From positions 5,379,152 through 5,443,151 of the forward strand of contig NC_092066.1 of NCBI RefSeq assembly GCF_039877785.1: 64,000 nucleotides of DNA. Direction: 5' to 3'. The position numbers and the translations under genes were made by a program. The DNA is from Chaetodon trifascialis (taxonomy: Eukaryota). The notes beneath the pieces are model-generated. The model had not been told where the DNA came from and did no database searches. It saw only the letters and a program-made list of their open reading frames with translations. Position 1 is the first letter of the stretch; every line of letters begins with the position of its first letter. Below are positions 2,491 to 26,593 of this stretch, one piece after another.

Positions 2491-4600
2491 GTGAGTTAAC
2501 GTTTAAAAACTAGCTAACGTTCGTGTTTAAAGCGCACCATAAACCGAACATGTCGGTTAATGTCTGTGAAAGTAACCGCGAATGACGATGGAAATGCACT
2601 GTTTGACAGGAGCGATACGACAACCTGGATCTGGACTTGGAGTGTGAAGGAGGAGGCGTAGCTGTGAGTGTTATCTGTCCGTTGTCTTTCATGAAAGTTT
2701 AGCCAGCTAACGTTAGTGTTGAAAGGTTTTTTGCGGAGCTGCATTTACAGTTTGCTGAAGTCAGTTAACGACCGTGGTTTACCGAATTTAACCGACCTAA
2801 CCTCAATCTGTGCGACGGAAACTCTCCATGTACAAACACACACTTACACAGTGAAGTCCAAAAGTATGTGCTCATGTTTTCTGTTGTGCTGGCGCATCGG
2901 ATTTAACATCTAACAATGACTATGAGGCTGAAAAGCTGACTCTCAGCTTTGAGTGCTCAGTGTACAAACCGTAGCTCTGTCATCACGGCCGGATTAACCG
3001 ACCAGCATGGTCCAGGGCGAAAATGTGCCACTGGGCCCCCATTAACCCCCCACACCAGATTAGATATATTAATATGAATATCCACAGCACAAGACTGCAT
3101 CAAGTTTGAGAAATTAAAGAATGAGGCTGGTTGCATAGGTTGTTTGCTGTAACTTGATGTTGGATTCAAATGGAGGGCAGGAAGTGAAAACCAATGGACG
3201 AGATGGAGGAAAGTTCGTAATCTGCTAGTTTAGAAGAAATTACAAGAGAAAACTGTACAGAAAATCAGAGAAAATGTTGGATGTGACCTTTATGTTATGA
3301 GGCAGCTGCTATTGAGGCAGTAGATATAACAACTACCTGCTCATTCAGATGTCATTCTGCTCTAGAAACCAAATCAAAGTATTCAAAAGTATGGAGGCAA
3401 ACAACTTTCTTGTTAGCCGTTGGGTGCACAACCTTGGTACCTAGGCTTTCCCCCTTATGGACAACAACTTTTGGTACTCGATCAAGCTCCTTATGGTGTC
3501 TCGGTTTGATCAAATTGACCAACCATAATCACAACACAGCTGCATTTTGAGTGTGTGTTGAAGTGCCTCCTATGCAGAAAATCACTTCCTGCCCTCCATC
3601 TGCAACTCGTGCCACAAAAAAGAGTGATGTGACGATATTTCAACAAATCCCATGAAAAGACCAAAACCAACAACGTGTTGCTACTGACTGACAAAAATCT
3701 TTAAACACAACTTACAAATATATAATTCGTTTTTTAATATAGGCTCAGAAATTTTCTAAAGCAGCTGGGCACTGCAGTTTTTAAAAAACGTTACTTAAGT
3801 TTGGGACTACTTTTAGCAGTGGATTAACACACTTTTTGTGTCAAGTGAGTATTTCCAGCTGCAGAGCAGTTTATGATGGACTGAGTCAAAATAGACTGAA
3901 GTATTCAAGTTATTGTGCTGAAGGAACATGTGCGTATTATTGAAGAGTCTTTCAGTTCAATGATCACAAACCAGTTGACTCATAACACACCTGAAGCTGC
4001 TGGAGCCCTTGAGTCCCTCCTACTTTATTTAATACTGTTATGTAAAGTACAGAAAGGGGTTTGTGTTCTACACTGTTTATTAGTTAAACCTGAAATAAAG
4101 CATCACAGTTTCTGTTTATATCAAGACGATCATCAAGAAACTTACAGACCTTTTTGTTTACAGCTGCATCCTTAGAAAAGGCTTTAAATGTTAAGCTAAA
4201 AAAGGCTAAAATCTGTTTACTGTCCAGTCTGATGTATTGTAGTGCTCCAGTCGTTCTTTAACAGGCTGATCAGTATTATGGTCAGTTTTCACAGAGCTAG
4301 AAACGCACCAATCACCCTAAATTTACTGTCGTCAAGGTTTCAAGTCCAGACATGAAACCAGCTTCAAGTCCGGACTTGAAACCTGGACCGTGGGATGTGA
4401 ACCAGTGAATGCGTCCGCTCATCCATAGAGTCATCTGTGAATTGTCGGTCATTCGAAGCATCTTTTCCGTGCAGGGGCAGATTGATGCTGCTGACTCACA
4501 GGTCATGGCAGCGAACGTTCACCCTCTGTTACTCGCTCACTCTCACTGAAGCTGCTCTGTCAGAACTGAATTAGTTTGCTCTTTTTCGCCCCTCATGCAG

Positions 4601-7600
4601 CAAAAAGCGGCGTTATTCGGTGGAATGTTTAAAAGATCCTCTAAGTCTGCAGAACCGTCTGTCCAAACTCAGGTGAGGTCATAGATTGTTTTTTAACTTC
4701 AATCATCAAATTCATTTGATAAGTTAATACACTGATCGAATGTCTCTTGAATGTTTCATTTAAGATGCTCACCTGTTCTCATGCTGTTCATGTGTGCAGT
4801 AATAAAATCACAATAACTGCTGCTTTGTGAAATCTGCAAATGATGGAATTACAGCATCTGATTCTGCGTCTGCTCACAAAGTTTGTGTGTTGATGTTACA
4901 GGACAGTTTATCAGCCAGCAGTGAACTTTCAAAGAGCAGCGACAGTCTGACTGACAACAGCGCCAAGGTGAGGCTCAGGAAACAGTCCTGGAAATTTAAT
5001 TTTTCTTTTCAAACTTTTTTTCTGGCCATCAGTAACCAAACTGAGGAGCTTTCATTGTGCTATGAATAATGGCAGTGTTTTTTAGCTTATAGACGGACGG
5101 ACTTATTTATTGATATTTCAGGAGAAAGGAGGCGTGTTCAAAGGAATGTTTAAGAAGACGACCAAAGCTGGCAAAGAGGGCCAACCGCAGGTGGGTAGTG
5201 AAATCATTAGTCGATTAATCAATCAGTTGATCAGCGAAAGATCAGTCAAGAGAAAGAAAAATGGGTCTCAGGTTGCCTTTATTTTGACAAATTTTTCATC
5301 ATTTTATTTTCATGTATTATTTATTTACCTTTATTACTCTGTATTTCTGAGTTTATGCTACTGAAAAATCTTTTGTAATCACTTGAATCTGTATTGTACC
5401 CATCAACAAAAATGGGAAGACGTAAAAGAAAAGTGATGGTCATAAAACAATGAAATATTTAAATATGTGTCTCCATAGTTGTTTTGAAATTCACAGATGA
5501 GATTCTAAAGCTTTTCAATCCTTTACAGGACAACCTGTCATTACCGAATCCTGAGCTGTCTGTCAGTACTGACAGTTTAACAGACAACAAGTCGTCAAAG
5601 GTGAGTTTACGTTCTGCTCTGTGAGATTTTTGGTTTTCTCACGTCAGTCTTTGAAAGTGAACCTTTTGTCTGCAGGAAAAGTCAGGCGTGTTCAGTGGGA
5701 TGCTCAAACGATCTCCTAAACCAGGACACGCCCGGAGGCCTTCACAGGTGAACCATTGATCTGCTATCTGCTGTCTGCTGTCAAAGATATGTCCAGAGAG
5801 TAAATCATCATGACATGTAAACTGTTGTGTTATTTCCTGACTGATCATCATGTGTTTCAGGATCTTTTGGAGAACGAGTTCACAGGCAGCAATGACAGTC
5901 CGTCTGAAAACACCACAACTAAAGTGAGTCTCATCAGCCAAACCAGTTTTTTAAATGCAAAAACATTCAAAAACACAAACAACTGGAAACAAATACAAAC
6001 GACGCTCACAAGCCTGTGATGCTGCTGGAGGCAGTTTGTTCTTAACTGTGATTTTAAAGCATTTTAAGCACTTTTTTTTTTTACTCTAAATGACCACAGA
6101 GCTCTTCCTTAGTGTTGACCAGCGACACATGTTGGTGATTCTGAATTGATTTAACCTCCAGTGGTTGTGTAGACCTCGACTCAGTGAATGGTGAGTTTGG
6201 GAAGGGTGTGATTTGTTTTTGTGGCTGTTTGGAAGCTGAACCTGCCTGCATCAGCAGTTTGGATGAGGTGCTGGCCAGCGTGTGAAGCACCAAATCCCCG
6301 TCTGTCCATCTGACAGCTGCATCGGTTCAATAGACAGAACAAAAGGTTTTATTTTCCGTTTCATTTCAGGGAACGTATAAGCAACTAATATGTGACTTTT
6401 TATTTTTCAGGAGTCAGGAGGGATGTTCAGCGGGATGTTTAAAAAATCCTCAAAGCCACTTGGAGCGAGGACACAGTCTCAGGTGAGAACTGCGCGTCTC
6501 ACTTTTACCTGTGTCACATTATTAATCGGTAACGAGTGTTTGTCTCTTGCCTTCAGGATGAGTTGTGGGCACCCTGCGAGCTCTCAGGCAGCAGCGACAA
6601 TCTCTCTGCAAACAGCAACACTAAGGTGGGTTGTGACAGGCAGCTGCTCATCTCCATATTCAGCCGCTGTGACTAACACTTGCTCCCTGTTTTCAGTCTA
6701 AGCTGATGGTACAGTCACATCACACCTCTGTCCTGCATGTATTTGCTCCATTGCTCATTCACTTCATCTAAAATCTGTGTTCAAGCATGCGTTTCTTGTT
6801 TTAGTGCAGCTTCCACACAGCCGCCTGTCAGTTTGCATCTACTGGTGTGAACACTGATGCACTTTGCTTTGAAACAGGAAAGTCATCATTCTTCCATATT
6901 TATTGATCAACCACATGACGATTGTGACATCACATCCTGTTTCAGGGCTGAGCGGTGTCACTGACCTGTGGGATAATGTGACTGTACCTTAATGCTGTTT
7001 GTATAGAGCTCAGCTCATTATATGCAGCGTCTGGGAAAGTGTGTTTCTGTGTTTGTTCTTGTGTGTGTTGGAAGGGCGAGGCAAACCTGCAAGTGTTAGC
7101 GTTTCAGAGGAGGCTACAAGCGGCTGAGTGAAGGGCGTACCGATCCATCGGACATTTGAAACCTAACTTCCTCCATTATGGGCAGAATTTCACAAAACCG
7201 TTCCATGTGACTTTCTTTTTTCCAGGAGTCAGGAGGGATGTTCAGTGGGATGTTTAAGAAATCCCCAAAGCCTTTCGGAGCGAGGACGCAGTCTCAGGTG
7301 AGAGCTCTGCACCTCATTTGTCTCACATATACCTGCGTTAGCTTATTAGGAGATGAAGGTAATAATCAGACGGGGATGTTTGCATCTCGCCTTCAGGATG
7401 ATTTGTCTGCACCTGGCGAGCTCTCAGGCAGCAGCGACAATCTTTCCGTGAACAGCAACACTAAGGTGAGGTCGTGAAAGCGGAGGAATTCCTTACTGAA
7501 CTCCTCCATTTTGGGCCAAATTTCCTTAAACCGCTTTGATGTAACTTTTGTTCCAGGAGGCAGGAGGGATTTTCAGTGGCATGTTTAAAAAAACCCCCAA

Positions 7601-8496
7601 ACCCTTTGGAGCAAGGACGCAGTCTCAGGTGAGAGTCATGGAGTATTGCTGCATCTTACAAATCTCACCGTTAAACCGTCTTACTACAAAGCAATTCAGC
7701 AGGATTAATGTTAATTACTCTGCATTTGTTTCTCGCCTTCAGGATGATTTGTCTGAACCCAGCGAGCTCTCAGGCAGCAACGATAATCTGTCTGAGAATA
7801 ACAACACGAAGGTGAGGTTTCTTAAAGCCAGCCACTGATTCTGCAGCATTAACCATGAGTAGTAAATGAGTGAATGTAGTGATTTGACATGTTGGCTTCA
7901 TATTATTTTCTCAGGAGAAAGGAGGAATCTTTAGTGGTGTGTTCAAAAAAAAAGGTGCCAAATCTCAGTCTCAGGTAAGACGGCTAAGTTTTTCAGACAG
8001 CTAACGAGTGTAAACAAACTGCCAGTCCGCCATTGTTGTTGTTGTTGTTGTTTTAGGCTCATTATACAAAGCAACAATGGGCATGCACAGACTGAGGTGA
8101 TGACACCATTGTTTCCCAGACACTCTATTTTACCTGTCCATGCACGCCTGCTCCTTTCTGCAAACAAAAACATGAAAGATAATCACATAAAAATCAAACA
8201 TGGCACCTTTAACGCTTGTTAAATGTTCGGTGTTTCGGTTGTTTTCTAGTTAACAGTTGCTCCATTTAATTTCTCACCTTTCTTGCTAATAGTCACCCAC
8301 AGTCTGCTTTGCTCCAGTGTCTGCAGTTCTTAAGTGAAATGTTGACATTTCACCTCGAAGTGAAGCTTCTGAGCGTCCTTTTTCGTCTTGGCTGTTGCTT
8401 TCTGACTGTGCGCTGTGTCCCTCTGTTCAGGATGATTTGTCCGTGGGTGGAGATCTCTCTGCCAGCAGCGACAGTCTCATAGAGAAGCCTTCAAAG
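4601..8496 (+). CDS. ApoL-repeat gene 1, N-terminal exon-pair repeat array: 14 short phase-0 exons in strict alternation of type A (basic, GMFKK-xPK) and type B (acidic, SSDSLSEN)
   Basis: Every exon has an AG acceptor and a GT donor, a length that is a multiple of 3, and no stop codon.
- 4601-4672: QKAALFGGMFKRSSKSAEPSVQTQ
- 4902-4967: DSLSASSELSKSSDSLTDNSAK
- 5122-5190: EKGGVFKGMFKKTTKAGKEGQPQ
- 5529-5600: DNLSLPNPELSVSTDSLTDNKSSK
- 5676-5747: EKSGVFSGMLKRSPKPGHARRPSQ
- 5861-5923: DLLENEFTGSNDSPSENTTTK
- 6411-6482: ESGGMFSGMFKKSSKPLGARTQSQ
- 6557-6625: DELWAPCELSGSSDNLSANSNTK
- 7226-7297: ESGGMFSGMFKKSPKPFGARTQSQ
- 7397-7465: DDLSAPGELSGSSDNLSVNSNTK
- 7557-7628: EAGGIFSGMFKKTPKPFGARTQSQ
- 7743-7811: DDLSEPSELSGSNDNLSENNNTK
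- 7915-7974: EKGGIFSGVFKKKGAKSQSQ
- 8431-8496: DDLSVGGDLSASSDSLIEKPSK. Confidence 0.75.
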
Positions 8497-8616
8497 GTGT
8501 GAGACGACGCTCACCGCACTGCACTCCTCTCGTCACGCATCACAGAAACTACTTTACACTGTTGGTCATGTTCTGAGATTAATGACATGCTGCTCATGTG
8601 TAATGTGTTGTAGCAG

Positions 8617-10459
8617 GATAAGGAAAAGGCTGAACGCTCGAGTGAGAATACCTCCACCACAGAGAAGCCCAAAGCCAAGCAGGTGAGTGACTGATCTCCT
8701 CTCTGTTGAAGTAAATCTGCTTTATATCAGCTGTGACGTTAAGGTGAGGGTTAGGGCTGTTTTTAAGTGGACTGCAGCAGTGTCTGTGTCATTTCAGAAC
8801 GGTTTCAGTGCGATGATGAAGAGCACCTTCTACACTGACAAACAGGTAAGAGCGGCAGACTGAACTCTTGACTTTTGCTGCATATCATCAGTTCATCTTC
8901 CCCATCACACGCCCCTGAAGCTAAATAGTATCTCAGTCAGAAACGCCTGAAAACAATAAAAGACAATGATGAAGTCGTCCACAGATGATTGTTGTACTAC
9001 TGTTGTTTATATTTTACTGTAAATTTGGCTCCTTGTGCAGGAGAAGAACCCAGATTCTGACCGTGAGGAGATATTGGACAGTGGAGAGGGCCAGCCCAGT
9101 CAGAAACAGGTTTGTGAGGTTTTCTCTCTGGGTTTCAGTCAGCAATTTATTTTCTTTATTGTTTCCCTATTTCATATTTTTTTTGTCTCTCGTTTGTTTT
9201 GTTTCACATTCAGAGCAAACTCGCTGAGACGATGACAAAGCTGAATCCGTTTCGATCCGCAAACAAGGTAAGGAAGGTTTAGATGTGATAGTGCTCGAGA
9301 GATAAGTAAAGTTTCCTTTGATGAATGGATGTATTGAAGGACCGTAACTGTGCAGCCTCTTTTATGTGTCGTTCATAAAATAATGATTTCTGTCTTCTCG
9401 CTGCAGCCGGAGAAGCAGGCGGGCTCAGACGACGAAGATCCACCTGCGAGCAGCGAGAAGTCATCAGGCAACAAACAGGTGCTTTGATATTTGCTCGTTC
9501 CTGTTTCATAAGTTTGAAGTCATGTTTGTTAGGGGTTGAAAAGCCTCTGCACATTGTTTGTCTGTTGTCAATAAAAAAGGAGAAGCTTGCTGCTTCCTCA
9601 CGTGTTGCTCTATTGCCAATCTTGTGAGTGTGTGTGGGCACATGGGTGAAACAGGCAGCGTGAAGTGCTTTGTTCTGCTTTGGTCAGAAAGTGGAGAGTC
9701 ATGAGCCAAAGGTTTCAGATTTACCCACAGGTTCTGTCCGTCGTCCAGCTTTACTTCTCTTATCTTGTGGATTTATTAGCGGACTCATTGTGGCTGATGG
9801 CAGACAAAGCAGATACTTATCTAAAATGCTGAAGCGTTCCCTTAAATCTTTCCACCTCAGAGCACCGTGGTTGGAGCCATGTCCAAACTCAATCTGTTCC
9901 GCTCTGCAAATAAAGTAACTATGCTCTTGATTGTGTTTGGTCGTGGTGGAGGTGTTGGTGAGATAGTCATGATGATGAGGTTTAAGGTGGCAGGAAGTCA
10001 TCATAGTGGTGGTGGGACTGTGGTAACGGTGATGGAGGTGATGTTTGTAGAATCTTTGGTTCGTTTTAATGAGTTGTAATGGTGTGCTGAAGACTTAAAG
10101 GACCATACCTGTGATTTCTCATGCTGCACCCAGTTTACTACAGAACACATGCACTTAACATCACAGCTAAACCCTGTGATGAATGACACAACTCAAACAG
10201 GTTTCAAGAGAGCAAATGGATTTCTGTAGTACATGGATTGTAGTTAAAGAGTTAAACTAGCAAAAATAACTTGGTACGGTCCTTTAATTGCTGCACAAGT
10301 AATCTGATTTTGGTCGATGCTGTTTAAATGCTAACGCTGAAGTCCTTCGTTCAGAAAGACACTGAAGACACAGAGACGCTCAAGGAGGATGGGAAACAAG
10401 TGGAAGAGAAACCGAAAATGGTCAGTCTATTTTTTGCATCACTCATGAGTCATCAGTGA

Positions 10460-10511
<52 letters not shown>

Positions 10512-13500
10512 CTGATCAGCTTCTGTCAAAAACACCCTCCTCCTCACGCTCCTCCTCATCCCCTTTACCTCCCTTTAAATCCAGCTTGCTCGTCGTCAAA
10601 CCTCACCGTCCTCCTGCTCCGACACACTGTGTGACTGTGTGTGTGTGTGTGTGTGTGTGCGTGTGTGCGTGTGTGTGTCCTTGTCAGGTCAAAGGCAACA
10701 TGATCCAGCGAGAGAGCAAAGAAAGAAGTGAAACGCCGTCGGTCCCACCCAGACCAACTGAAGAGGTTCACAAGCAGTAGAACACAACTGGCACTCAGAG
10801 ACGTGGTCCATGTGAGACTATTCGTCCGTCCCTCTGCTGTGAATTTTATACTTAACGCTGTGATCTTTCCTCAGGAGATGAAGAGCATATCGACATACAG
10901 CAAAGTAAAACCAAGAGGAACTGAGGGTCATCAGGTACAGTTTGCACTTCTCAGATTTGCTCAGTGACTTGTGGGCTGTCTGCACATCTCTGCTTCCTCA
11001 GAGCCTGAATATATTTGAAGATATCTGTTAAAATACAATTAAAAGGAGTTAATGATTTTATATTCCAGCAAGCCACACAATGCTTCTGACTGTCATGCTT
11101 TGTATGGAAAGGTGTCACTAGTTTCTCATACTTTGTCCTCTGCAGGACAACAAGGACGTGAACTCCAGAGAGAAAAAAGCTAAAGCTGCAGAAAGTCCTG
11201 AAGTTCCCGTCAGACCTTCAGATGAGGTAGTTTAAGCTTTCAGCCTTATAGGAAAAAATGTCTGTGTGTCAGTTTGGAGCTGATGTGTGGTTAAAGAAAC
11301 TGCTCTGCTTTAATTTCAGGAGCTGAGCAGAGCAGAGAGACGTGCTCTGCAGAAGCACCATCAGGTACGGACAGTCAGGCCAACATATTGGTTTGTTATT
11401 GAATATCAGCTATTGGATATAATGGAGTTTTTTTCCCCCCTGAGTCAGAAATGTGTTTTGCTTATTGTTCCTTCACTTGATGTTTAACCTTCACTGTGCA
11501 GAACGAAGCATGTGCAGACTTTGACTCTTTGTCGAAAACACTTTTCCTGAGATTACTGTAGTTATAATCTAATGAGTTTAATTTGCTGCAGAGCCAATCA
11601 GATGACGAAGGCCTCAAAAACGAAGAATCTGCTGAAGCCAAAGGGAGAGACGAGAGCAAAACAGTACGTTTATCTCTTCATCACTGTCGATAAGATTGCA
11701 TTAATTGCTAATCAGAGGCTGACTGACTGCAGTATTTATCTTACGTCTGTGTGTGCTGAGCGTGAGACTTTCTCTGTCAGTCTATGTGTGATAGGACTCC
11801 ACATACATGAAGGTGTAAACAAACACAGTATTTGCTCCAACATGTAAACGTTCTAGTTCCTGCTTCCTACTTATCACTTCTTTCATTCAAATGACATGCG
11901 ATACCTCCGGGTTATTGTTACTGTGAGGTTTGTCCAAGCTCGTGGATTGAACTTCTTAACATCAGCTTCATTGTTGTATAATTCATAGACATTTCTCCAA
12001 AGTTCAGCCTGATATATTTGGTATTCCACTTTGGGATATCCGGTAGATTAGAACGATGTTTGGCTGCACAGCATGAATTTCTTTCCCCACAAAGCCACTG
12101 CTTATTGAGGGGCTGTTCAGTGGAAATAGTAAATCTCTCAGTGATGGGAGCAGATGATAATGAGATGAGACATACAGAAATAGAATAGTTACCTGCATGT
12201 TTGAGGGAAGTTATAGCCTCTCATCTAACACATCATCACTGTGCCGTTTCTTTTACAGACCAAGGTGAAAAAGCATCATAATCCGTTTATGCCTCGTGCA
12301 GCTGCTAAGGTTTGTTTTATTTTGATGTTTGCACTTCTTGTAGAGTCATGAAGACATTTGTCTTCTTTGCTCGTCCCTCAGTTTGTGAGACACGATGTTT
12401 GATTCATTACCTCCTCAAATCTTTGGCAAAGGCTGCAGAATGTTAGAATCTAAGTTCATTCACATGCAGCCTTGTGTAACCTCTTTCCTCCGGGCACTGA
12501 TTTGTTTCACTGCTATGCTCACACTTTGTTGTTTACTTCAGGCTCCGTCTGATGATGAGGGGCTGGGAGAAGAAGATGATCCTTCGTCCAAAGAGGAGCA
12601 GAAAGACGAGGAGGGCAAAGACAAAACAGAGGAGGTCTTTTAACTCATTTCCTTCCGCTCCATCTTTGCTTGTTGATTGGTTAAACAGTCAGCTGGAACA
12701 AATGCTTCAAAATCTTCCTCAAAGTAACACAGAAATCCTGATTTTTTTTTTCCTTTTTTTCATTTCAGACAAAAGTCAAGAAACCTAAAAGACACAATCC
12801 CTTCATGCCTCGAGTCAAGGTAACAGTCAAATATGTACCAGCTTGCTTCCTCACGTGTGGACAAAGCCTGCTTGTGTTTTAACACATCAGCTAACTGCAC
12901 TTTGTCCTCATTGAGCAGTTCACATCATTGAGGACAACACGATCGTCCGCATCCTTCCACCCTAAAAACAAAAATCAGGCATTTTTGTTCTCAGACAGCG
13001 GCTCTGTATCAGTCTGCAGCCTGTTCAGCAGACATTGTGTTTCTGCACGTCGCTGAACTGGAGAAACAAGAATCTGAGTGGGCATGATACGTCATCCTGC
13101 AGGTCACGGTCCTGAAGCGCTGTACGCCACATCCACCCATTCCAGGCATCCAGTGCTCGTTATTCTCTGCCAATTAAGTTCATTGATAGGTGCGTGTTGA
13201 ATATATGGAGGAAAAAAGTTGATGTCAGCAGGTGTTAACACAAATGAAACACGCTCCAGTGGAGGATCTGCATCACACCAGCCCACGTCAATACAAAGCT
13301 ACGTCAGAAATGCCCTCCTGTTGGCTGTTTAGTGCACATCGTTTGCTTTTCACTCTGTTCTGGTCTGAAACGTCTCTGTGGAACAAAAGAAGCTGTGTCC
13401 ATATCATGTTCACTTCCTCCTGCCGAATGTTCCACAGTGCAACATTTCTCCTTTGTTATGGGAAAGTTGCAGTTAAGCAACACTTTCACCCGTCACCATC

Positions 13501-16500
13501 ATCTCTCTTTGCTCACTGGAGTGCTCCTCTGTGTGACCTTATTTTGGCGAGGTTGCTAAGTTAGCATAGCTGAAATTTCAAATACTGCCTTTTATGAGCA
13601 CGGCATGAGTTTGTCACCCGGTTACTGTTTTGAAGGGAAGAAGTTATCAGTTATTATGCCCTTTTTTGTCATTTTTAAGATGTTAAAAATGATCACTCTT
13701 ACCTGGTGTTGCTTTTGGCGGCCTGTTTTAATTTTAGTCTTAGTCTAGTCTTTGTGTCAAGCTGTCATTTTAGTTTTTATTAGTTTTAGTCACGTTCATA
13801 CTCTTTTTAGTCTAGTTTCAGTCGACTTAAAGTCTGAGTACTTTAGTCTTATTTTAGTCAGAGTTATCCGGGACTATTTTAGTCTAGTTTTAGTTGATGA
13901 AAATTGTATTTTACTCTCTTTTTAGTAATGCAATTCTATTTAACCCAGTCAATATAGTATAAGTACCTAGTAATATAGACGAAACCAAAATTATCTTTTA
14001 GCCAAACCCATTTCACAATTCAAACAAGGTTGTCTTATTATATATTGTTACCTTATAGAGTCAAGAATACACCCATTCCAGACACCAAGACGCTCTGATG
14101 TGAATTTACAACATATTTATTTTACCAAGCAAAGCCGGCTGGCCATCGGTCCTGTTCTCTGTGTCGGTTGTCTGTCGTTAACATTAACCTACCGCAGCTG
14201 CATCTTCTAAATAACGCCGTGAGTGGGAACTAATGCCGTGATGTCACCTGCGACTGCGCAGTGCGACCTGAAGCAGCCCCTGAAGTGAGACACAGGAAAC
14301 AGAAATACTGCAAAATAATAAGAACAACGCGACTAAACGAGACGAAATAACGTTAGAACATTTTGTCTCGTCTTGTTTTAGGCAACTAAAATAAAGAGAC
14401 ATTTTAGCAGAGTTTTTATTTTGTAAACCACATTTAGTTTCATTTTTATTCGTCATCAATATTTCATTATATATTTAGTTATAGTTATCGCCACATGACC
14501 AGCATTTACGTTGCGTCTCGTCTCCTTTTCGTCACACGATAAAGGTTCGTTGACAACGATATTTAGTCAGAATTTTCGTTGACCAAAGCAGCACTACTCC
14601 TACCTCCAGATCAGCTCTGCCTCTGAATAATGGTTGTGTTGCTGTCTGGACTGTATGGGAACCAATATGAGCCTCAAAGCATGTTTTGATAAAGCTATTG
14701 AAAGTGCTTTAACTGTGTGTTTGTGTTCATTGTTTTAGGGCAAAGTTGTAAAGAAGCCTGCGCAGGACGGAGCTGCAGGCAACACAGCAGAGGTAGAGAA
14801 ACAGATGATCTTCAGGAAGTCTTTCTTTCTTTCCTTCAGTCACCTCGCATTACATTTAGAGCGACTTTTAACCTTTTCCCTCCCAGTCTGTGTCTGTGTA
14901 TTTATCCACCAGTCTGACATGTTGCCGTCTTACTCACTGTGGTTCAGGATTATAAAAGGCCTGTTTCAGTCACCCAACCCATCCCTGAAAACAACCCCTT
15001 TCTGTTGTTTGTCTCCAGGGTCTCCGCTCAGCTCCCAGCAGAGACTATTATAGTTGACATGTTTTTTTTTCCTCCACTCTCAACATGAAACCCACCCCCA
15101 CACCTTGGCTCCACCACACGGTCTTTGTGCATGCATGTGTGGAAGATAAGAGGAGGAGGTTGCAATGTGCCCAGACTTGTTTCTCTGCTTCCCTTTTCAG
15201 CGTGTCCATGGAAGATTTAAGCCCTTTGTACTTCTGCAAAAACAGCAGAAATAAGTCAGTTCAGTCAGAATCCTTTTCCCCTCACTTCCTCCTCTTTATC
15301 TCACCATATACAGTGTAAAAAGTGAAACTATGTGACGCTTGATGAGTTCATTTGACTTCTCGCTCTTTTATATGTCTCTCAGCCTTTTTGTCCTGCTGAC
15401 GTACACTTCAGCTGTAGATCCAGACTTTTGGCTTCACACAGGAAAGCATCTTGATGTTAGTTTTGGATTTTTAAGCAGTATTTTTCCTGTTGTTTCAGAA
15501 TGAAGGTGCAAACAGGTCCTTGTTTGACCAACTGGAAGACTTCCGTATTGATCCAACCCAGCCTGAAGACAGACAGGTTTGGCCTCTGAGAGCAAAATAT
15601 GTCACCATAGTATCATTTCAGCATAATCTGACACATTATCAACTATCTCTCCAACAAATAATCCAAGTTTTAGCTTTAGTGCTCATTCATTGGGTAATGT
15701 AAGAAAACTGCAGGTGGCCAGAATGGGTTCAGAACAGATGATGACGATATTTTTCTGTTACGATAGATTCAGAGTCTCTCTATTTTCTTTGTGTATGTTA
15801 CTTAAATGTTGTCAGTTATTATTGTTTCATGCACAGCGTTATGATGTGTTATATTAGTGTATTGTGATGACCAGAGTGAGTGTGAACTGTGTACAACCCA
15901 TGAAGAAAAGCTGCTAATATACAAAAATCAGGATCTTGATTGAATCTCACGGTGTCTTTCAGGATGTGGAGGATCTTATGGAGTGGTGGAACACAGTGGA
16001 AGGTAAATCATAAATAAAATGTTTTTCACTTTGTTTGGCTTTCTTTGGGCTGTGTTTTAAGAGTGGAAGGCCAGTTTTTTAGTTTAACCTTGAACCACTT
16101 ACACTGTGTGACCAAAATATGTGGACGTGCCTGTTTACATACCCTAGTGTGCTGTTTTTCTTGGTTTGGACCCCTACGTTCCTATTAAAGGAAATCTTAA
16201 TGCTGCAGCATACATTTATATTTTAGAAAATAGTGTTCCTCGTTATAAAGTTTCAACATGATGGTGCTTCTGTGCACAAAGCCAGGCCCATAGAGAAATG
16301 GTTTAGTGGCCTGCTCAGAGCCTTGACCTCAACCCCATCCAACACCTTTGGGATGAACTTGAACGCAGACTGCGAGCCAGACTTTATCTCTCCAATGTCA
16401 GTGTCTATTAAAACAGCATATTCGTGCCCATACTTGTGGAATAATGCACTGGATGTTTTGTGTCCACATACTTTTGGCCATATAATATAAGTAGGATTGT

Positions 16501-16587
16501 GAGAAAGCTAATATCGTTCTTTATTACTCCTTCAGTTTGGGAAGACACGCCTCAAGATGATGACATGACGGAAAAAGAAGAGGCGAA
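8617..16587 (+). CDS. ApoL-repeat gene 1, middle exons: additional repeat modules and linker exons joining the array to the ApoL domain
   Basis: Exons carry AG...GT boundaries and are in frame, phase 0 unless noted.
- 8617-8682: DKEKAERSSENTSTTEKPKAKQ
- 8798-8845: NGFSAMMKSTFYTDKQ
- 9041-9109: EKNPDSDREEILDSGEGQPSQKQ
- 9214-9267: SKLAETMTKLNPFRSANK
- 9407-9478: PEKQAGSDDEDPPASSEKSSGNKQ
- 9861-9914: STVVGAMSKLNLFRSANK
- 10355-10420: KDTEDTETLKEDGKQVEEKPKM
- 10688-10765: VKGNMIQRESKERSETPSVPPRPTEE (weak donor gttcac; an in-frame stop lies 15 nt downstream)
- 10875-10934: EMKSISTYSKVKPRGTEGHQ
- 11146-11226: DNKDVNSREKKAKAAESPEVPVRPSDE
- 11320-11364: ELSRAERRALQKHHQ
- 11592-11663: SQSDDEGLKNEESAEAKGRDESKT
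- 12259-12309: TKVKKHHNPFMPRAAAK
- 12542-12634: APSDDEGLGEEDDPSSKEEQKDEEGKDKTEE
- 12769-12819: TKVKKPKRHNPFMPRVK
- 14739-14792: GKVVKKPAQDGAAGNTAE
- 15499-15576: NEGANRSLFDQLEDFRIDPTQPEDRQ
- 15963-16002: DVEDLMEWWNTVE, ends in phase 1
- 16536-16587: (V)WEDTPQDDDMTEKEEA, ends in phase 2
The 10688-10765 and 25956-26036 exons of the two genes are clear paralogs. Confidence 0.6.
10461..10508. repeat. (CA)n microsatellite
   Basis: A perfect dinucleotide run, with a (GT)n partner at about 10637-10678 on the other side of a short unique segment. Both lie in an intron of gene 1. Confidence 0.95.
13690..14600. repeat. putative non-autonomous DNA-transposon relic, rich in TTTTAGTC/TAGTCT words and with internal palindromes
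   Basis: The words ttagtct/ttttagtc recur densely between 13730 and 13900. A palindromic segment lies at 14330-14390 (cgactaaacgagacgaaataacgttagaacattttgtctcgtc). The element sits within the intron between exons 12819 and 14739. The family is unknown. Confidence 0.3.
16090..16490 (+). mobile_element. internally deleted Tc1/mariner (Tc1-like) DNA transposon relic inside an intron of gene 1
   Basis: The translation contains the Tc1 transposase C-terminal motifs (FQHDGASVHKA...PAQSLDLNPIQHLWDELERRLRARLYLSNVSV, spread over frames because of frameshifts). Inverted terminal repeats are gtgaccaaaatatgtggacgtg (about 16108) and tgtccacatacttttggcc (about 16461). Confidence 0.6.
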
Positions 16588-17078
16588 GTAAGTGAATAGA
16601 TGTTCATATTTATATAACAATAATAATGTAATATTTCACTGTCTGGCATCTTTGCTCTCTCAAAGTGGTATTCAGCCATGCAGATTTCACGTGGAGTGTT
16701 GAGATGTAAAATATCTTCCACGACCTCAATATAATTATGAGAATAAAATTTAATTTGTTCTCTCCTCAAATCTCTGAAACGTCGCATTTGAAAAACTATG
16801 ATTGATAAAAACAGTGACTCAGAAACAATGCCAGCACTCCTCTGGATAATCCACAGAACATGCTGTCAGATGGTTCCTTTATTAGAGTAGCTCCAAAGAA
16901 AAAGCTGATGACAGAAGGTTGTGTGGATTATCAGAAAATCAGAACCTGGTTTCTACGGTTTTGTGGGAGTCGAATGGTTAAATGAAACGATCTGCATGCA
17001 GACGTACACCAGTGGTGAGTGAGAGACGATGACGTTTAAAGATAATGAAGGTTATAACTCTCGTCTTGCTTCTCTCAG

Positions 17079-18021
17079 GGCTTTTGCTGTGACGGCGGAG
17101 AAGGTGCAGAAGGGCATCCGTGTCTTCAACAAACTGTTCTCGGAGCGCGCTGAGAGCCTCTGGCAGCACGTCATCGACCTGAACAGCATCGCAGACGGCC
17201 TGGACAAGTTCAGCAAAAACACAAAGATCGCTCAAATCACCGGCGGCTCCACCAGTGCCATCGGGGGCGTGGCCACCATCGCCGGCCTCGCTCTGGCACC
17301 GGTCACCATGGGAACCTCCTTGATTGTGACAGCGGTGGGACTGGGTGTCGCCACGGCTGGCGGTTTGACGTCGGCAGGCGCCGGCATCTCCAACCAGGTC
17401 AACAACTCTATGGACCGCAAGAAGGTGGAGAAGATCGTGCAGGATTATCAGGAGAAGATGGTCGACCTCAACAAGTGCCTGAAGTTCATCAAGCAGGGAA
17501 TCGAGAACCTGAAGAAGTTCGACCTGATCAAGATGAAAGAACACGCCTACAACCGCGACTTCCCTGTGCTCAGCAGTAGTTTCTACGAGGACGGCGCCAT
17601 GGCAGGAAAGGCCATCCTCATCAACGCAAACGAGATCATGCGCGTGGTGCAGATCGCCAACGTGGCGGGCAGCACGGCGGCCAGAGCGGTCCAGATCGCC
17701 AGCATGGCCACCGGTGTGCTCACCGGACTCTTCGTAGGTATGGACATCTACTTCGTGGCCAAAGACTCCAAAGAACTCAAGAAGGGGGCCAAGTCCGAGT
17801 TTGCCGCCAAAATCAGGGAGGTCGCCACGCAGCTGCACGACGGTCTGGTGGAGCTGAACACGATACGAGAGGAGCTGCAGTGCACCGGGCCGGAAAACAA
17901 GGACGCAGGCGAAGAGAAAGAGAACGAGAAAGAAAACAAATACGACAGTTCAGATGAAGATGAAATCGACCGCATTAAAAAAGCCATTAAAAAGGACATC
18001 GAGAGCCGAGAATACGTTTGA
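17079..18021 (+). CDS. ApoL-repeat gene 1, terminal exon: a complete apolipoprotein-L (ApoL) domain plus a short acidic tail, with the stop at 18019-18021
   Basis: The acceptor is tctctcag|g at 17078, and phase 2 gives K-AFAVTAEKVQKGIRVFNKLF... The translation has the hallmarks of the ApoL family. A glycine/alanine-rich hydrophobic hairpin (KIAQITGGSTSAIGGVATIAGLALAPVTMGTSLIVTAVGLGVATAGGLTSAGAGI) is followed by ...ILINANEIMRVVQIANVAGSTAARAVQIASMATGVLTGLFVGMDIYFVAKDSKELKKGAKSEFAAKIREVATQLHDGLVELN... This matches the long ORF 17029-18021 in the track. An AATAAA at about 19622 could be the polyadenylation signal. Confidence 0.85.
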
Positions 18022-24539: not shown

Positions 24540-26441
24540 GCAGGATGGAGGCGTGTATGATGAAGCCAGAAGTCAAAAAGAAGCCGAAGCTGGTGAGAAC
24601 AGTCACAGGTTTACTGAATATTGTAGAACGTGTAAAAAAACACAGATGGAAATATGAATTACTGCATCATCACTCAAAGAGCCTCATGTTTTCTTCTCTG
24701 CTCGCAGCCTAAACCTCCTCCAAAGCCCACAGAGGTACTGTAACAACCCTTTGATCAGTCAATCATTAGCTTGAGTGGTTGTTTATGTGCGACTTCAGGA
24801 TGTTACAGCGAGTTAAACTGTCGTTACAGAGACAAAGAAATGACCCAGAGAGACCAGCTCCTCTGGTGCCCCCCCGACCTGCAGACACTGTGAGTGCTCA
24901 CCGACCTGGAAGACGTCCTGATCTTTTACAGACCAGAGGTGTTTCTCTGAAGGGTCTGCCATATGTTTTTATTATGTTTACCTTCTACTGGAGGAGCAGT
25001 GTGCCAACATTTCTAAAGATCTGCTAATGTTGAAATAGATTGCATAAGCTGGGTTCCAGTGGAGAGATGTTTTCCACTCTGTGAGGTGGAAAACTGAAAG
25101 ATAATCCACAAAATCCAGATCAGCAACAAAGATATATGTAGTTTTTATGCTGCACACGCATTAAAACTTAACACAGGTGTACCTACAGGCCAGTCTAAAA
25201 CCAGTATGACAAAGTGCTCCACCACTGAACGTGACTGCTTTTAGCTGTGTTCTGTTGTCATAAGTTTTCTTTGAGGAAATGCCCTCTTTGGTTCTTTAAA
25301 TAAAGGTTGAATGAATGAACATTAACACAAGCTGACGTCTGTAATTAGCCACTGATCAGGACTGATATGAGCAGTAAAAACAACAAACTCTCGTAAAGCC
25401 GCTGAAGACACAGAGGAAATATGGAGCACAGGCCACTTTATAAGATTTACTTGGAGACGAAAATATTTTAACCATTCGTGTTTTCTGTGCAGGAGCTGAG
25501 TCAGACACAATACCGCATGAAAAGAGCAGCAATGAACAATGAGGTACCTTCTTTTTTTACATTTCCATTATTTCTGTTTTACTCGATAGTTTCCTGTAAA
25601 GAGAGATCGAAGCGGGGGAGGGGATGATGTGTGAGAATATCCTGGTAAATGTTGAGGACAACCAGACTTTTCTTGATTTAAATACAAGTAAAACAGGGAT
25701 TTGTGATGGCGAAGTGGTTCAGACACATGCTGTGAAAAAAATCATCTTTGAACAAAGAAAAACAAAATGAGATATGAAAGATCATGTGACAAAAATGATG
25801 CTACAGACGCACCACCAAAAAGATCAGTGCTTTAAACATCAGTGTCATGATTTAATATGTGGGTTTACATGTCCAAACTATATTCTGACGTACCAAAAAC
25901 ACTCTTATTATGGCTGCCTTCAGGTGTTTTTCCTCACTTTTTTTGTGTGTTTCAGACCAAAGGAAACTTGATCCAAACAGAGACAAAAGAGAAACCGACT
26001 GAATCTCCCGTGGTTCCACCCAGACCCACAGAAAAGGTACGAAACACCCAAACACTCATCATATCATGATACTCAGCAGTACTAGTATTGTCGTATTTTA
26101 GAGCAGTGAGAACAATTTACAGTGAAGAACCGACCAGAGCTGCACGAGGTTCCACGTTTCTGTTCCTGTTCCAGATCTCTTTTGTTATTGTTCCCTCGTG
26201 TGTGTGTGTTTGTGTGTGTGTGTATGTGTGTTTGTAGGAACTGAATGCCACAACCAGATACAGTGAGCGCAGGAGGGTACAAGCTGAGGACACACAGGTA
26301 CACACACACACACACAATGAAATACTTTGTTCCTCCTTGCTTGGTTTTATAAATCACAGTTATCGTCCTTCCTCTTCCTCATCAGACTTCCAGAGAAAAC
26401 AACCAATCAGAAGCGCCCAAAGATGAGGCAGACTTCAAACA
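24540..26441 (+). CDS. ApoL-repeat gene 2, N-terminal exons: putative start ATG at 24545, then proline/basic-rich VPPRP modules
   Basis: Exons are phase 0 with AG/GT boundaries.
- 24540-24592: ATG at 24545, MEACMMKPEVKKKPKL
- 24708-24734: PKPPPKPTE
- 24830-24889: RQRNDPERPAPLVPPRPADT
- 25493-25543: ELSQTQYRMKRAAMNNE
- 25956-26036: TKGNLIQTETKEKPTESPVVPPRPTEK
- 26238-26297: ELNATTRYSERRRVQAEDTQ
- 26385-26441: TSRENNQSEAPKDEADFKQ
The 25493, 25956 and 26238 exons are paralogous to gene 1 exons 11320, 10688 and 10875. The true initiator could lie further upstream. Confidence 0.5.
26197..26234. repeat. (TG)n microsatellite (imperfect)
   Basis: A gtgtgt run immediately upstream of the acceptor of exon 26238, in an intron of gene 2. 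Confidence 0.9.
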
Positions 26442-26593
26442 GGTATTTCAGCTGGAGCTGTTATCGGCTGTCACGTAGTGCAGTTCAACCCTGATCCCAG
26501 AAACGACGGGACGCTGTGTAAAACATTTCAGAAGTCGGTGATCAGCGAATCCTTCTAATGCTCAATTATTATTATTCCGTGTGCTTTGTTCAG

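What the first reader, a model, noticed from the sequence alone, without database searches (positions are those of the whole stretch)
9214..12819. Second and third families of internal repeat modules in gene 1
Beyond the GMFKK/SSDSLSEN pairs, gene 1 carries two copies of a (S)xxxxMxKLNxFRSANK exon (9214, 9861), each followed by an acidic exon (9407, 10355). It also carries two copies of a TKVKKxxxNPFMPRxxK exon (12259, 12769), each preceded by an S-x-S-DDEGL acidic exon (11592, 12542). Three exons end in V-P-P/V-R-P-S/T-E/D-E (10688, 11146, and 24830 and 25956 in gene 2). The protein is therefore built from at least three independent duplicated basic-plus-acidic exon-pair families. This suggests a general mechanism or selective pressure for alternating charge modules.
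Basis: seen in the sequence. Interest (0 to 1): 0.55.

Follow-up and report, generated by a model that had tools for sequence, protein, structure and literature searches.

The report
Duplicated motif mini-exons in fish ApoL gene
The repeats are real. They are small duplicated exons in the disordered front half of a fish apolipoprotein-L-like membrane protein, and what they conserve is short docking motifs (mainly Asn-Pro-Phe) rather than charge alone; this is an ordinary kind of gene evolution seen in an unusually clean example.

Summary
All exons named in the finding exist at the stated coordinates. Each has AG/GT borders and a length divisible by three.

**What the gene is.** Gene 1 is a teleost "apolipoprotein L1-like" gene. 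About 32 phase-0 mini-exons encode a roughly 700-aa region that I take to be disordered, followed by an ApoL domain (PF05461, E=1e-35).

**Which repeats beat chance**:
- KLNxFRSANK exons: z=11.
- TKVKK…NPFMPR exons: z=8.4.
- VPxRP exons: z=5.7.
- SDDEGL exons: z=2.5, plus an identical hexapeptide at the same offset.
- The acidic exons that follow the KLN exons are not similar to each other (z=0.4).

**Support from RNA and other species.** Transcript contigs from related fish confirm most of the splice junctions. Conger and smelt have the same one-module-per-exon layout. Annotated isoforms differ by exactly these exons.

**What is conserved.** Families 2 and 3 are both NPF modules. In 28 orthologue IDRs there are 87 NPF against 0 for the other five orderings of N, P and F.

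**Function.** My best reading is a multivalent array of docking motifs (NPF for EH domains, PxxPxR for SH3 domains), built by tandem exon duplication and adjusted by cassette splicing. Binding is inferred, not shown.

**Charge.** Charge alternation between exons is statistically real, but it rests on only a few independent units.

**Verdict.** This is a new member of a known kind, of moderate to low interest.

The parts
4601..8496 (+). Context: array of GMFKK (basic) and SSDSLSEN (acidic) mini-exons, E3-E16 of gene 1 (family 1, the subject of another finding).
   Evidence: The younger copies share 68-86% nucleotide identity, and this similarity runs about 20 nt into the introns.
8617..8682 (+). 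E17: mixed-charge spacer exon DKEKAERSSENTSTTEKPKAKQ, ending in KQ just before a class-1 exon.
   Evidence: It is present in transcript contig L001.
8798..8845 (+). E18: degenerate third copy of the class-1 family, NGFSAMMKSTFYTDKQ, with the NPF lost.
   Evidence: It matches the transcript at 92% nucleotide identity. It is most similar to the poeciliid exon SGFGAIFKNPF... (z=5.6). Eel orthologues have NGVMNGILKNPFRSG at the corresponding position in the exon order.
9041..9109 (+). E19: acidic spacer exon (net charge -4), ending in QKQ.
9214..9267 (+). E20: class-1 NPF exon SKLAETMTKLNPFRSANK (54 nt, phase 0-0).
   Evidence: (z=11 against E22).
9407..9478 (+). E21: acidic spacer exon PEKQAGSDDEDPPASSEKSSGNKQ (net charge -3).
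   Evidence: The smelt orthologous exon is QDNETRTDSEEPPASSEKPSSHKQ.
9861..9914 (+). E22: class-1 exon STVVGAMSKLNLFRSANK, in which the motif Pro has become Leu (CCG to CTG).
   Evidence: Relatives also read NLF (P0002, P0031) or NIF (Symphorus P0122). It is a cassette exon in annotated Seriola, Alosa and Oryzias isoforms.
10355..10420 (+). E23: acidic spacer exon KDTEDTETLKEDGKQVEEKPKM (net charge -3).
   Evidence: It is not similar to E21 (z=0.4).
10688..10765 (+). E24: PxxPxR exon ...SETPSVPPRPTEE.
   Evidence: The Pfam p47_phox_C hit is weak and below threshold.
10875..10934 (+). E25: follower exon EMKSISTYSKVKPRGTEGHQ.
11146..11226 (+). E26: second PxxPxR exon ...ESPEVPVRPSDE.
   Evidence: (z=5.7 against E24).
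11320..11364 (+). E27: follower exon ELSRAERRALQKHHQ.
   Evidence: Its orthologue is a cassette exon in Seriola.
11592..11663 (+). E28: acidic exon SQSDDEGLKNEES... (S-D-D-E fits the CK2 consensus S-x-x-E/D).
   Evidence: Together with E29 it is absent from transcript L004.
12259..12309 (+). E29: class-2 (polybasic) NPF exon TKVKKHHNPFMPRAAAK.
12542..12634 (+). E30: acidic exon APSDDEGLGEEDD... (net charge -11).
12769..12819 (+). E31: class-2 NPF exon TKVKKPKRHNPFMPRVK, the best conserved exon of the whole disordered region.
   Evidence: Columns K648, K650, N653, P654, F655, P657 and K660 are at least 90% conserved in 40 teleost sequences. Mean identity to the window residue is 0.77.
14739..15576 (+). 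E32 (14739-14792) and E33 (15499-15576, NEGANRSLFDQLEDFRIDP...): the last two phase-0 exons of the disordered region.
15963..18021 (+). Three 3' exons (15963-16002, 16536-16587, 17079-18021) that encode LMEWWNTVE.WED, the ApoL domain and the stop codon.
   Evidence: PF05461, residues 741-995, E=1.1e-35.
24830..26297 (+). Gene 2 (a tandem ApoL paralogue): two PxxPxR exons (24830-24889, 25956-26036), each followed by an E-L... exon (25493-25543, 26238-26297).
   Evidence: E24 against 25956: z=12.5.

Best explanation
**What it is (shown).** Positions 8.6-12.8 kb of the window encode the middle of the roughly 700-residue N-terminal region of a teleost apolipoprotein-L-domain protein. I take this region to be intrinsically disordered. 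It is encoded by about 32 mini-exons of 45-93 nt, all phase 0-0. Each exon carries either one short conserved motif or a charged spacer.

The 'second' and 'third' families are two flavours of Asn-Pro-Phe (NPF) module:
- Class 1: hydrophobic-K-L-NPF-R-S-A-x-K. It has three copies here: one degenerate, one intact and one reading NLF.
- Class 2: polybasic K-V-K-K-P-K-R-H-NPF-M-P-R. It has two copies, each preceded by an SDDEGL acidic exon.

The VPxRP exons are PxxPxR (class II SH3-ligand-type) modules. They are shared with the neighbouring paralogue, gene 2.

**How it arose (shown or strongly inferred).** The copies came from tandem duplication of single exons or two-exon units. Phase symmetry keeps such duplications in frame. 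The duplicates in this region are ancient: introns and synonymous sites have diverged, and copies are present in eels, smelt, shad and percomorphs. Copy number still changes between lineages, and annotated isoforms include or skip exactly these exons.

**How it most likely works (inferred, not shown).** There is no signal peptide, so the N-terminal region probably faces the cytosol. There it would act as a multivalent docking strip. Several NPF motifs with basic or neutral flanks suit the EH domains of Eps15, intersectin or REPS-type proteins rather than those of EHD proteins. Together with SH3 ligands, they would couple the membrane-embedded ApoL domain to endocytic or sorting machinery. Exon number and splicing would set the valency. 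On this reading the acidic exons are spacers, possibly phosphorylated by CK2.
For: **Gene identity.** One search returned 153 teleost hits, most carrying PF05461. One search places ApoL at residues 741-995 (E=1.1e-35). No Pfam family matches the N-terminal region.

**Exon structure.** Searches give the exon table.
- Transcript contigs L001, L004 and L005 from related fish align exon by exon at 72-97% nucleotide identity, mostly above 77%. The alignments break at the predicted junctions. L001 and L004 each also run through one retained intron.
- The same one-module-per-exon layout is found in Conger and Osmerus.

**Repeat statistics.**

**NPF as the selected core.**
- The window's N-terminal region has 3 NPF against 0.08 expected (p=5e-5).
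- 28 orthologue regions hold 87 NPF, against 0 for each of the other five orderings of N, P and F (about 1 expected).
- In a motif-blind alignment of 40 sequences, the only columns at least 90% conserved before the last exon of this region are K648, K650, N653, P654, F655, P657 and K660.
- NPF exons are better conserved than acidic exons.

**Age.** No intron or synonymous-site similarity remains between the copies. By contrast, the GMFKK units still share flanking intron sequence.

**Cassette use.** Isoforms of Seriola, Oryzias, Alosa and Sander differ by exactly one module exon or one pair. Transcript L004 lacks the E28+E29 pair.

**Literature.**
- NPF is the canonical EH-domain ligand, and valency governs EPS15 binding (PMC12808100).
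- EHD-type EH domains prefer NPF followed by acidic residues (PMC13282721).
- Other EH domains disfavour acidic flanks (PMC2238750).
- Symmetric exons that encode disorder are known to promote modular evolution (PMC3632108).

**Structure prediction.** AlphaFold2 on the Seriola orthologue predicts no secondary structure and pLDDT below 50 across this region. Small bumps sit at the NPF, PxxP and SLFDQ sites.
Against: - No binding, localisation or topology data exist for this protein, so the link to EH and SH3 domains rests on motif matching alone.
- Copy C has lost the motif Pro (NLF here and in two relatives, NIF in a snapper), yet the rest of the exon stays conserved. This suggests class-1 exons also do something other than canonical NPF-EH binding.
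- The class-2 flank KKPKRH could equally be a lipid-binding or NLS-like polybasic patch.
- The AlphaFold2 model is poor overall (pTM 0.25), so it adds little.
- Isoform evidence comes from database predictions and from transcript contigs of other species, not from this organism.
- Non-teleost orthologues were not recovered, so the origin of the array is unknown.
Confidence: 0.6

Rival explanations
1. The selected feature is the alternation of basic and acidic blocks itself. On this view the region is a blocky polyampholyte tuned for compaction, self-association or condensation, and the shared motifs are incidental relics of duplication.
For: - Net charge changes sign at 27 of 31 exon junctions (p<=1e-5). 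Outside the GMFKK array it changes at 12 of 16 (p=0.011).
- Exon borders fall close to the charge transitions.
- Acidic exons keep their charge while their sequence drifts.
Against: - The best conserved residues are uncharged or motif-specific: N, P and F, PxxP, and G-L in SDDEGL.
- Alternation is inherited whenever a pair is duplicated, so only about four independent units exist.
- The acidic partners in family 2 are not homologous.
- Eels replace the PxxPxR exons with [PL]PxY exons, which swaps one motif for another without changing a charge block.
Confidence: 0.2
2. The basic and hydrophobic exons (GMFKK, KLNxFRSANK, KVKKPKRH...) are membrane-binding patches for acidic lipids. The adjacent Ser/Asp/Glu exons switch them off intramolecularly or through phosphorylation. 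On this view NPF is not read by EH domains.
For: - Copy C keeps SKLN-L/I-FRSANK without the Pro in at least four species.
- Class-1 'A-type' exons occupy a GMFKK slot and resemble GMFKK exons.
- Each basic exon has an acidic neighbour with S-x-x-E/D sites.
Against: - N-P-F is kept with near-total fidelity in class 2, and there are 87 NPF against 0 permuted tripeptides. A charge-plus-hydrophobe patch would not need that.
- No amphipathic helix is predicted for these exons, although the model is of low confidence.
Confidence: 0.15
3. The similarities are compositional chance, or the segments are not real coding exons.
For: - The peptides are short (17-18 aa) and lie in a compositionally biased region.
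- The SDDEGL exon pair reaches only z=2.5.
Against: - The pairs reach z=8-12.5, and no shuffle out of 2000-3000 reached the observed score.
- Transcript contigs of relatives confirm the splice junctions.
- Exon-for-exon orthologues exist in Conger and Osmerus.
- More than 100 annotated teleost proteins contain the modules.
Confidence: 0.01

Closest known systems
NPF-motif arrays in endocytic and sorting proteins that bind EH domains. Examples are SYNJ1 with three NPFs and Dab2 (PMC12808100, PMC12370899). From my own knowledge, epsins, Hrb/AGFG1, stonin-2 and the N-terminal NPF repeats of SCAMP membrane proteins also belong here.
   Same: - Several NPF tripeptides are spread along a disordered, probably cytosolic region.
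- The flanks are non-acidic.
- Multivalency is the likely determinant of binding.
- As in SCAMPs, the array sits N-terminal to a membrane-embedded domain.
   Different: - Here every NPF has its own phase-0 mini-exon.
- The copy number changes through exon duplication, exon loss and cassette splicing.
- The partner domain is an ApoL domain.
- No binding has been tested.
EHD-type ligands, in which NPF is followed by an acidic cluster. Examples are MICAL-L1 (NPFEEEEED), Rabenosyn-5 and Rab11-FIP2 (PMC13282721).
   Same: - The core NPF tripeptide is shared.
- An acidic cluster lies about 8-10 residues downstream, in the next exon.
   Different: Positions +1 to +3 are R-S-A or M-P-R, which are basic or neutral rather than acidic. 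The defining EHD preference is therefore not met.
Modular evolution through phase-symmetric exons that encode disordered segments (PMC3632108). Classic cases from my own knowledge are the titin PEVK exons and the acidic/basic repeat exons of TCOF1 (treacle) and NOLC1.
   Same: - The exons are phase 0-0.
- They have duplicated in tandem.
- They encode disordered sequence.
- They alternate between acidic and basic units.
- They are used as cassettes in splicing.
   Different: - The units are much shorter (15-31 aa).
- Several different motif types (NPF, PxxPxR, SDDEGL and, in eels, [PL]PxY) are strung together in one region.
Apolipoprotein L family (Pfam PF05461): human APOL1-6 and APOLD1, and the zebrafish 'apol1' used as a nephropathy model (PMC4492502).
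   Same: The C-terminal 300 residues are a clear ApoL domain.
   Different: - From my own knowledge, mammalian APOLs have no such N-terminal mini-exon array.
- The zebrafish morpholino target sequence translates to MEWLDD. This aligns with the conserved LMEWWN that sits just before the ApoL domain here. The studied zebrafish model therefore appears to start after the disordered region. This is an inference and was not checked on zebrafish sequence.
Class II SH3 ligands (PxxPxR), for example the p47phox C-terminal proline-rich region (Pfam PF08944).
   Same: The motif P-x-V-P-x-R-P is conserved in gene 1, in gene 2 and across Clupeocephala.
   Different: - The Pfam hit is far below threshold (12-13 bits against a cut-off of 27).
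- The resemblance covers only the motif, so this is not family membership.

Membership tests
Apolipoprotein L domain proteins (PF05461) | A match to the ApoL profile above Pfam's gathering score. | tested here: met
   124 bits against a cut-off of 25.9, E=1.1e-35, residues 741-995 of the 1048-aa conceptual protein. Most homologues also carry PF05461.
EH-domain ligand (NPF short linear motif) | An Asn-Pro-Phe tripeptide in an accessible, disordered region. | tested here: met
   There are three NPFs, in E20, E29 and E31. No Pfam domain covers the region. AlphaFold2 predicts no secondary structure and pLDDT below 50 in the orthologue.
EH-domain ligand (NPF short linear motif) | The motif is conserved and over-represented relative to composition. 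| tested here: met
   87 NPF against 0 for the five permuted tripeptides in 28 orthologue regions, with about 1 expected. N653, P654 and F655 are at least 90% conserved.
EH-domain ligand (NPF short linear motif) | The motif is exposed to the cytosol, in the same compartment as EH-domain proteins. | tested here: inconclusive
   The N-terminus MERYDNLDLDLECEGGG has no hydrophobic signal sequence, so a cytosolic location is likely. The membrane topology of the ApoL domain was not determined.
EH-domain ligand (NPF short linear motif) | Physical, NPF-dependent binding to an EH domain. | not testable with these tools
   This needs peptide binding assays or co-immunoprecipitation.
EHD-type (C-terminal EH domain) ligands | Acidic residues directly after NPF, at positions +1 to +3. 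| tested here: not met
   The sequences read NPFRSA and NPFMPR. The orthologue profile shows R/S/A and M/P/R at +1 to +3. The rule comes from PMC13282721.
Tandem duplication of phase-symmetric exons | Both copies have the same symmetric phase and lie next to each other in the same orientation. | tested here: met
   All 32 exons of the N-terminal region have lengths divisible by 3 and AG/GT borders. The copies lie 510-650 bp apart.
Tandem duplication of phase-symmetric exons | Sequence similarity between the copies is above chance. | tested here: met
   z=11, 8.4 and 5.7. The exception is the pair of acidic exons 9407 and 10355 (z=0.4).
Tandem duplication of phase-symmetric exons | Residual similarity of the flanking introns, which would mark a recent event. 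| tested here: not met
   Searches find none for the NPF exons. By contrast, the GMFKK units retain intron similarity. The NPF-exon duplications are therefore old, which agrees with copies being present in eels and smelt.
Class II SH3 ligand (PxxPxR) | A conserved PxxPxR motif in a disordered region. | tested here: met
   the motif E[TS]PxVPxRP[ST][DE]E recurs in most Clupeocephala orthologues and in gene 2 orthologues. Binding was not tested.
CK2 phospho-acidic cluster | The S-x-x-[DE] consensus within an acidic run, and actual phosphorylation. | tested here: inconclusive
   The S-D-D-E sequence in E21, E28 and E30 fits the consensus. Phosphorylation cannot be tested here.

The most novel reading that the evidence does not exclude
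Teleost ApoL1-like proteins may be membrane-anchored trafficking scaffolds rather than plain ApoL proteins. On this reading, an ApoL membrane domain is fused to a roughly 700-residue cytosolic strip in which every docking motif has its own mini-exon. The motifs are NPF, PxxPxR, [PL]PxY in eels, and GMFKK. Valency would be set on evolutionary time by exon duplication and motif birth (for example KPF becoming NPF inside a GMFKK exon in poeciliids) and on physiological time by cassette splicing. The zebrafish 'apol1' model used for APOL1 nephropathy work would then have left out this entire regulatory half of the protein.
Probability: 0.3. Interest if true: 0.55.

Novelty: new member of a known kind. 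Interest (0 to 1): 0.35.

Why it matters
- **A clean natural example.** It shows that short docking motifs can be packaged one per symmetric mini-exon. They can then be multiplied, lost, degraded (NPF to NLF or STF) or newly created within a repeat array.
- **A testable function.** It gives a concrete hypothesis for an uncharacterised half of a protein family: recruitment of EH-domain and SH3-domain partners. The best-known member of that family, APOL1, matters for human kidney disease.
- **A caution for the zebrafish model.** The zebrafish apol1 model studied so far probably starts after this region.
- **Limits.** The principle is already known, the gene is already annotated in many fish genomes, and the function is only inferred.

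Tried and rejected
**Lines that led nowhere.**
- DNA-level repeat search across 8400-13000 found only microsatellites and short chance matches. The 19-20-nt stretches around the NPF codons were the sole exception.
- Pfam searches of the N-terminal region found no family. They gave only a sub-threshold p47_phox_C hit on VPPRP.
- A second homology search, using the Conger N-terminal region to reach non-teleost fish, returned only three teleost hits. It says nothing about gar, sturgeon or tetrapods.
- Look-ups of the Alosa and Anguilla isoforms P0038 and P0109 found no record. Conger and Osmerus were used instead.
The Seriola orthologue gave a poor model (pLDDT 39, pTM 0.25). That model is usable only as weak support for disorder.
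- No paper in the held library mentions both apolipoprotein L and an NPF motif.

**Ideas considered and dropped.**
- Homology of the acidic exons 9407 and 10355: rejected at z=0.4.
- Common origin of class-1 and class-2 NPF exons: not supported beyond the NPF itself (z=1.7 and -0.4).
- The NPF receptor POLE2 (PMC12808100): set aside as unlikely, because from my own knowledge it is a nuclear replication protein while this is a membrane protein.
- A resemblance of the GMFKK and class-1 motifs to BCAS1 repeats: recalled from memory only, not tested and not used.
- The ORF at 34638-35078 as a Harbinger-like relic: no Pfam hit.

Full report
**1. What the window is**

The sequence is vertebrate genomic DNA. 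It has short exons with AG/GT borders, polypyrimidine tracts and CA/TG microsatellites. I joined the candidate exons of 'gene 1' and searched them against the large protein collection. The search returned 153 hits, and all 120 listed were teleost proteins. Most carry the Pfam ApoL domain and are named 'apolipoprotein L1', or carry arbitrary low-complexity names such as starmaker-like, midasin-like or dao-5-like.

Back-alignment of the best hit (Clinocottus, 949 aa) completed the model.
- After an upstream exon that supplies the ATG (not located in the window), 32 consecutive phase-0 mini-exons of 45-93 nt (E2-E33, 2610-15576) encode about 700 residues.
- Three further exons (15963-18021) encode an invariant LMEWWNTVE.WED segment and the ApoL domain.
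- The ApoL match is PF05461, residues 741-995 of 1048, E=1.1e-35.
- No Pfam family matches the N-terminal 700 residues.
- 'Gene 2' (24545-40233) is a tandem paralogue with its own ApoL domain. The same two-gene arrangement is seen in smelt.

**2. The observation**

The table gives local alignment scores against composition-preserving shuffles.

| Pair | z | Note |
|---|---|---|
| E20 (9214) vs E22 (9861) | 11 | no shuffle reached the score |
| E29 (12259) vs E31 (12769) | 8.4 | no shuffle reached the score |
| E24 (10688) vs E26 (11146) | 5.7 | |
| E24 vs gene-2 exon 25956 | 12.5 | |
| E28 (11592) vs E30 (12542) | 2.5 | share SDDEGL at residues 3-8 |
| E21 (9407) vs E23 (10355) | 0.4 | similar in composition only |

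All three exons that precede class-1 exons (E17, E19, E21) end in KQ. This is a post-hoc observation. Four of the 32 exons end in KQ and three of them hold these positions. E19 vs E21 reach only z=1.8.

**3. Are they real exons?**

- A 1747-nt transcript contig from a related fish (L001, Logan SRR28040489) encodes E2 to E23 in the predicted order. It aligns to the window exon by exon at 76-96% nucleotide identity, and it then reads into the E23 intron.
- Two further transcript contigs (L004, L005) cover E20 through the ApoL exons and the 3' UTR, with breaks at my exon borders. L004 retains the E19-E20 intron.
- L004 lacks the E28+E29 pair, whereas the protein encoded by L005 contains both class-2 NPF modules.
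- In Conger conger (an eel, from the earliest teleost branch sampled here) and Osmerus eperlanus (smelt), mapping the annotated protein onto genomic DNA shows the same layout. Each module is one exon of 51-57 nt, and the spacers are exons of their own.

**4. What is conserved**

- Class 1 reads ...G-A-M-S-K-L-NPF-R-S-A-x-K. It includes older 'A-type' relatives such as GG-x-M-G-K-I-L-K/R-NPF-x-S, and occurs in up to four copies.
- Class 2 reads T-K-V-K-K-P-K-R-H-NPF-M-P-R-x-K, in one to three copies.
- Orthologues of gene 2 have no NPF.

Tests that do not presuppose the motif agree.
- The window's N-terminal region has 3 NPF where 0.08 are expected (p=5e-5).
- 28 orthologue regions hold 87 NPF and none of NFP, PNF, PFN, FNP or FPN, with about 1 expected for each.
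- In a MAFFT alignment of 40 sequences, the only columns at least 90% conserved in the whole region before E33 are K648, K650, N653, P654, F655, P657 and K660, all in E31.
- Exon-wise conservation ranks E31 (0.77), E33 (0.62), E20 (0.54) and E24 (0.53) highest. The acidic spacers score 0.33-0.43.
- The VPxRP exons carry a conserved PxxPxR motif, E[TS]PxVPxRP[ST][DE]E, in Clupeocephala and in gene 2. Eels instead have two or three [PL]PxYE[DN]V exons at that place.

**5. History**

The duplicates in this region are old. Only the motif codons align between copies, and the introns do not. Copies are shared by eels, shad, smelt and percomorphs. The array is nevertheless dynamic.
- Class-2 units number one in eels, salmonids and cichlids, two in many percomorphs and shad, and three in cyprinodontiforms.
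- The A-type exon present in Seriola, stickleback and a snapper is missing between E16 and E17 here.
- E18 has lost its NPF.
- E22 reads NLF. The codon change is CCG to CTG. Relatives also read NLF, or NIF in a snapper.
- The GMFKK units at 6390-7814 still share 68-86% nucleotide identity that extends into the introns, so they are younger.

The families are probably not independent.
- A-type class-1 exons follow an SSDSLSE-type exon, exactly as GMFKK exons do.
- Some A-type exons score above chance against GMFKK exons (z up to 4.8).
- Poeciliids carry, inside the GMFKK array, an exon SGFGAIFKNPFGARAPSQ. Its tail FGAR..SQ is that of the window's GMFKK exons (z=5.1), and an NPF stands where the GMFKK exons read KPF.
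- E18 is most similar to that poeciliid exon (z=5.6).

With about 40 comparisons made, this link is suggestive rather than proven.

**6. Splicing**

Annotated isoforms within one species differ by exactly one module exon or one pair.
- Seriola isoforms differ by NAMIGAMSKLNPFRSANK or by EMNRAPTRGLQKQKNNHQ.
- Oryzias latipes isoforms differ by a class-1 exon, or by an acidic-plus-class-1 pair.
- Alosa isoforms differ by copy C and by a PxxP-type exon (VPPKP).
- Sander isoforms differ by the E26- and E27-type exons.

These are database predictions from other species. They fit cassette use of the modules.

**7. Charge**

Exon net charges run -5, +3, -2, +4, -2, +5, -4, +3, -3, +3, -3, +3, -5, +4, -3, +1, +1, -4, +3, -3, +3, -3, 0, +2, -1, +2, -4, +5, -11, +7, +1, -4.
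- The sign changes at 27 of 31 junctions (permutation p<=1e-5).
- From E17 onward it changes at 12 of 16 (p=0.011; lag-1 product p=0.0003).
- Exon borders sit near the charge transitions.

However, duplicated pairs inherit it, which leaves roughly four independent units. The residues under strongest constraint are not the charged ones.

**8. Mechanism**

*Shown:*
- the mini-exon architecture
- duplication as the source of the copies
- the great age of the duplicates in this region
- NPF and PxxPxR as the conserved cores

*Supported only by database predictions and transcripts of other species:* cassette use of the modules.

*Inferred:*
- There is no signal peptide, so the N-terminal region probably faces the cytosol.
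- NPF is the canonical EH-domain ligand.
- EPS15 binding depends strongly on motif valency (PMC12808100).
- EHD-type EH domains prefer NPF followed by acidic residues (PMC13282721). Other EH domains disfavour acidic flanks (PMC2238750).
- The flanks here (NPFRSA, NPFMPR) are basic or neutral. If these motifs are EH ligands, Eps15, intersectin or REPS-type partners are more likely than EHDs.
- The KLNPF of class 1 also occurs in the EHD2 loop KPFRKLNPF (PMC4398442), which is a resemblance only.
- The acidic exons contain S-D-D-E (the CK2 consensus) and may be regulated spacers.

The main doubt is that copy C is conserved without its Pro. That points to an additional or different role for class-1 exons, for example membrane binding.

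AlphaFold2 on the Seriola orthologue predicts no secondary structure in this region. The only pLDDT values above 50 fall at NPF, EEPP, the residues after VPPRP, and SLFDQ. The model is poor overall.

**9. Comparison and novelty**

The principle is established: symmetric exons that encode disorder are duplicated and alternatively spliced (PMC3632108). NPF arrays are typical of endocytic accessory proteins. The gene is annotated in many fish genomes, but the held literature has no paper linking ApoL proteins with NPF motifs.

The zebrafish 'apol1' used in nephropathy studies spans only 2.6 kb. Its morpholino target translates to MEWLDD (PMC4492502). This corresponds to the LMEWWN that lies just before the ApoL domain here, so the studied model probably lacks the whole motif strip. 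That is an inference and was not checked on zebrafish DNA.

**10. Verdict**

- The feature is a new member of a known kind, of moderate to low interest.

Noticed in passing
window 24545-40233 (+): Gene 2 is a tandem ApoL-domain paralogue, with ApoL exons at about 37056-39174. It has its own GMFKK/SSDSLSEN array and two PxxPxR exons but no NPF. It ends in a K/E/R-rich low-complexity tail of about 350 aa (ORF 38593-40233). Its Chanos orthologue, P0070, is named apold1a.
   Followed up: partly
P0044, P0060 and P0027 (poeciliid and goodeid orthologues); window 8798-8845: Inside the GMFKK array these fish have an exon SGFGAIFKNPFGARAPSQ. It is a GMFKK-type exon in which an NPF stands where the window's GMFKK exons read KPF, which looks like the birth of an NPF motif. 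Window exon E18 (NGFSAMMKSTFYTDKQ) is most similar to it (z=5.6).
   Followed up: partly
L002 19195-19679 (Conger conger); P0109 and P0051: Eel orthologues carry two or three tandem exons with [PL]PxYE[DN]V motifs (WW-domain or YxxPhi type). These sit where other teleosts have the PxxPxR exons, so one motif type has been swapped for another at the same position.
   Followed up: partly
window 15963-16587 (+): The invariant Trp-rich segment LMEWWNTVE.WEDTPQDDD lies immediately before the ApoL domain (W712, W713 and W719 are invariant in 40 sequences). The published zebrafish apol1 morpholino target translates to MEWLDD. The studied zebrafish model therefore seems to begin here and to lack the disordered region.
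   Followed up: partly
window 6390-7814 (+): Three GMFKK+SSDSLSEN units share 68-86% nucleotide identity, and the similarity runs about 20 nt into the flanking introns. They are much younger duplications than those of the NPF exons, so unequal crossing-over in this gene appears to be ongoing.
   Followed up: partly
window 8497-8616 (the E16-E17 intron): The 'A-type' NPF exon (GGxAAKILKNPFTSSSQ) lies between the orthologous exons in Seriola, stickleback and Symphorus. It is absent here and in the close transcript L001, which indicates a lineage-specific exon loss.
   Followed up: partly
window 57370-57735 (-): This exon encodes an RNA recognition motif (Pfam RRM_1, E=8e-14). The sequence looks like hnRNP C or RALY. 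The smelt locus L003 has a TEP1-like gene upstream of the ApoL pair.
   Followed up: partly
window 10448-10510 and 10620-10686: A long (CA)n and a long (TG)n microsatellite lie in the intron between E23 and E24.
   Followed up: no
window 34638-35078 (+), inside a gene 2 intron: A 146-aa ORF (...FWEKIVNEEFTDELWIQHFRMTRATFNELCDVLEPLV...) recalls the N-terminal part of Harbinger/PIF-derived proteins. This rests on memory only, and Pfam gave no hit.
   Followed up: partly
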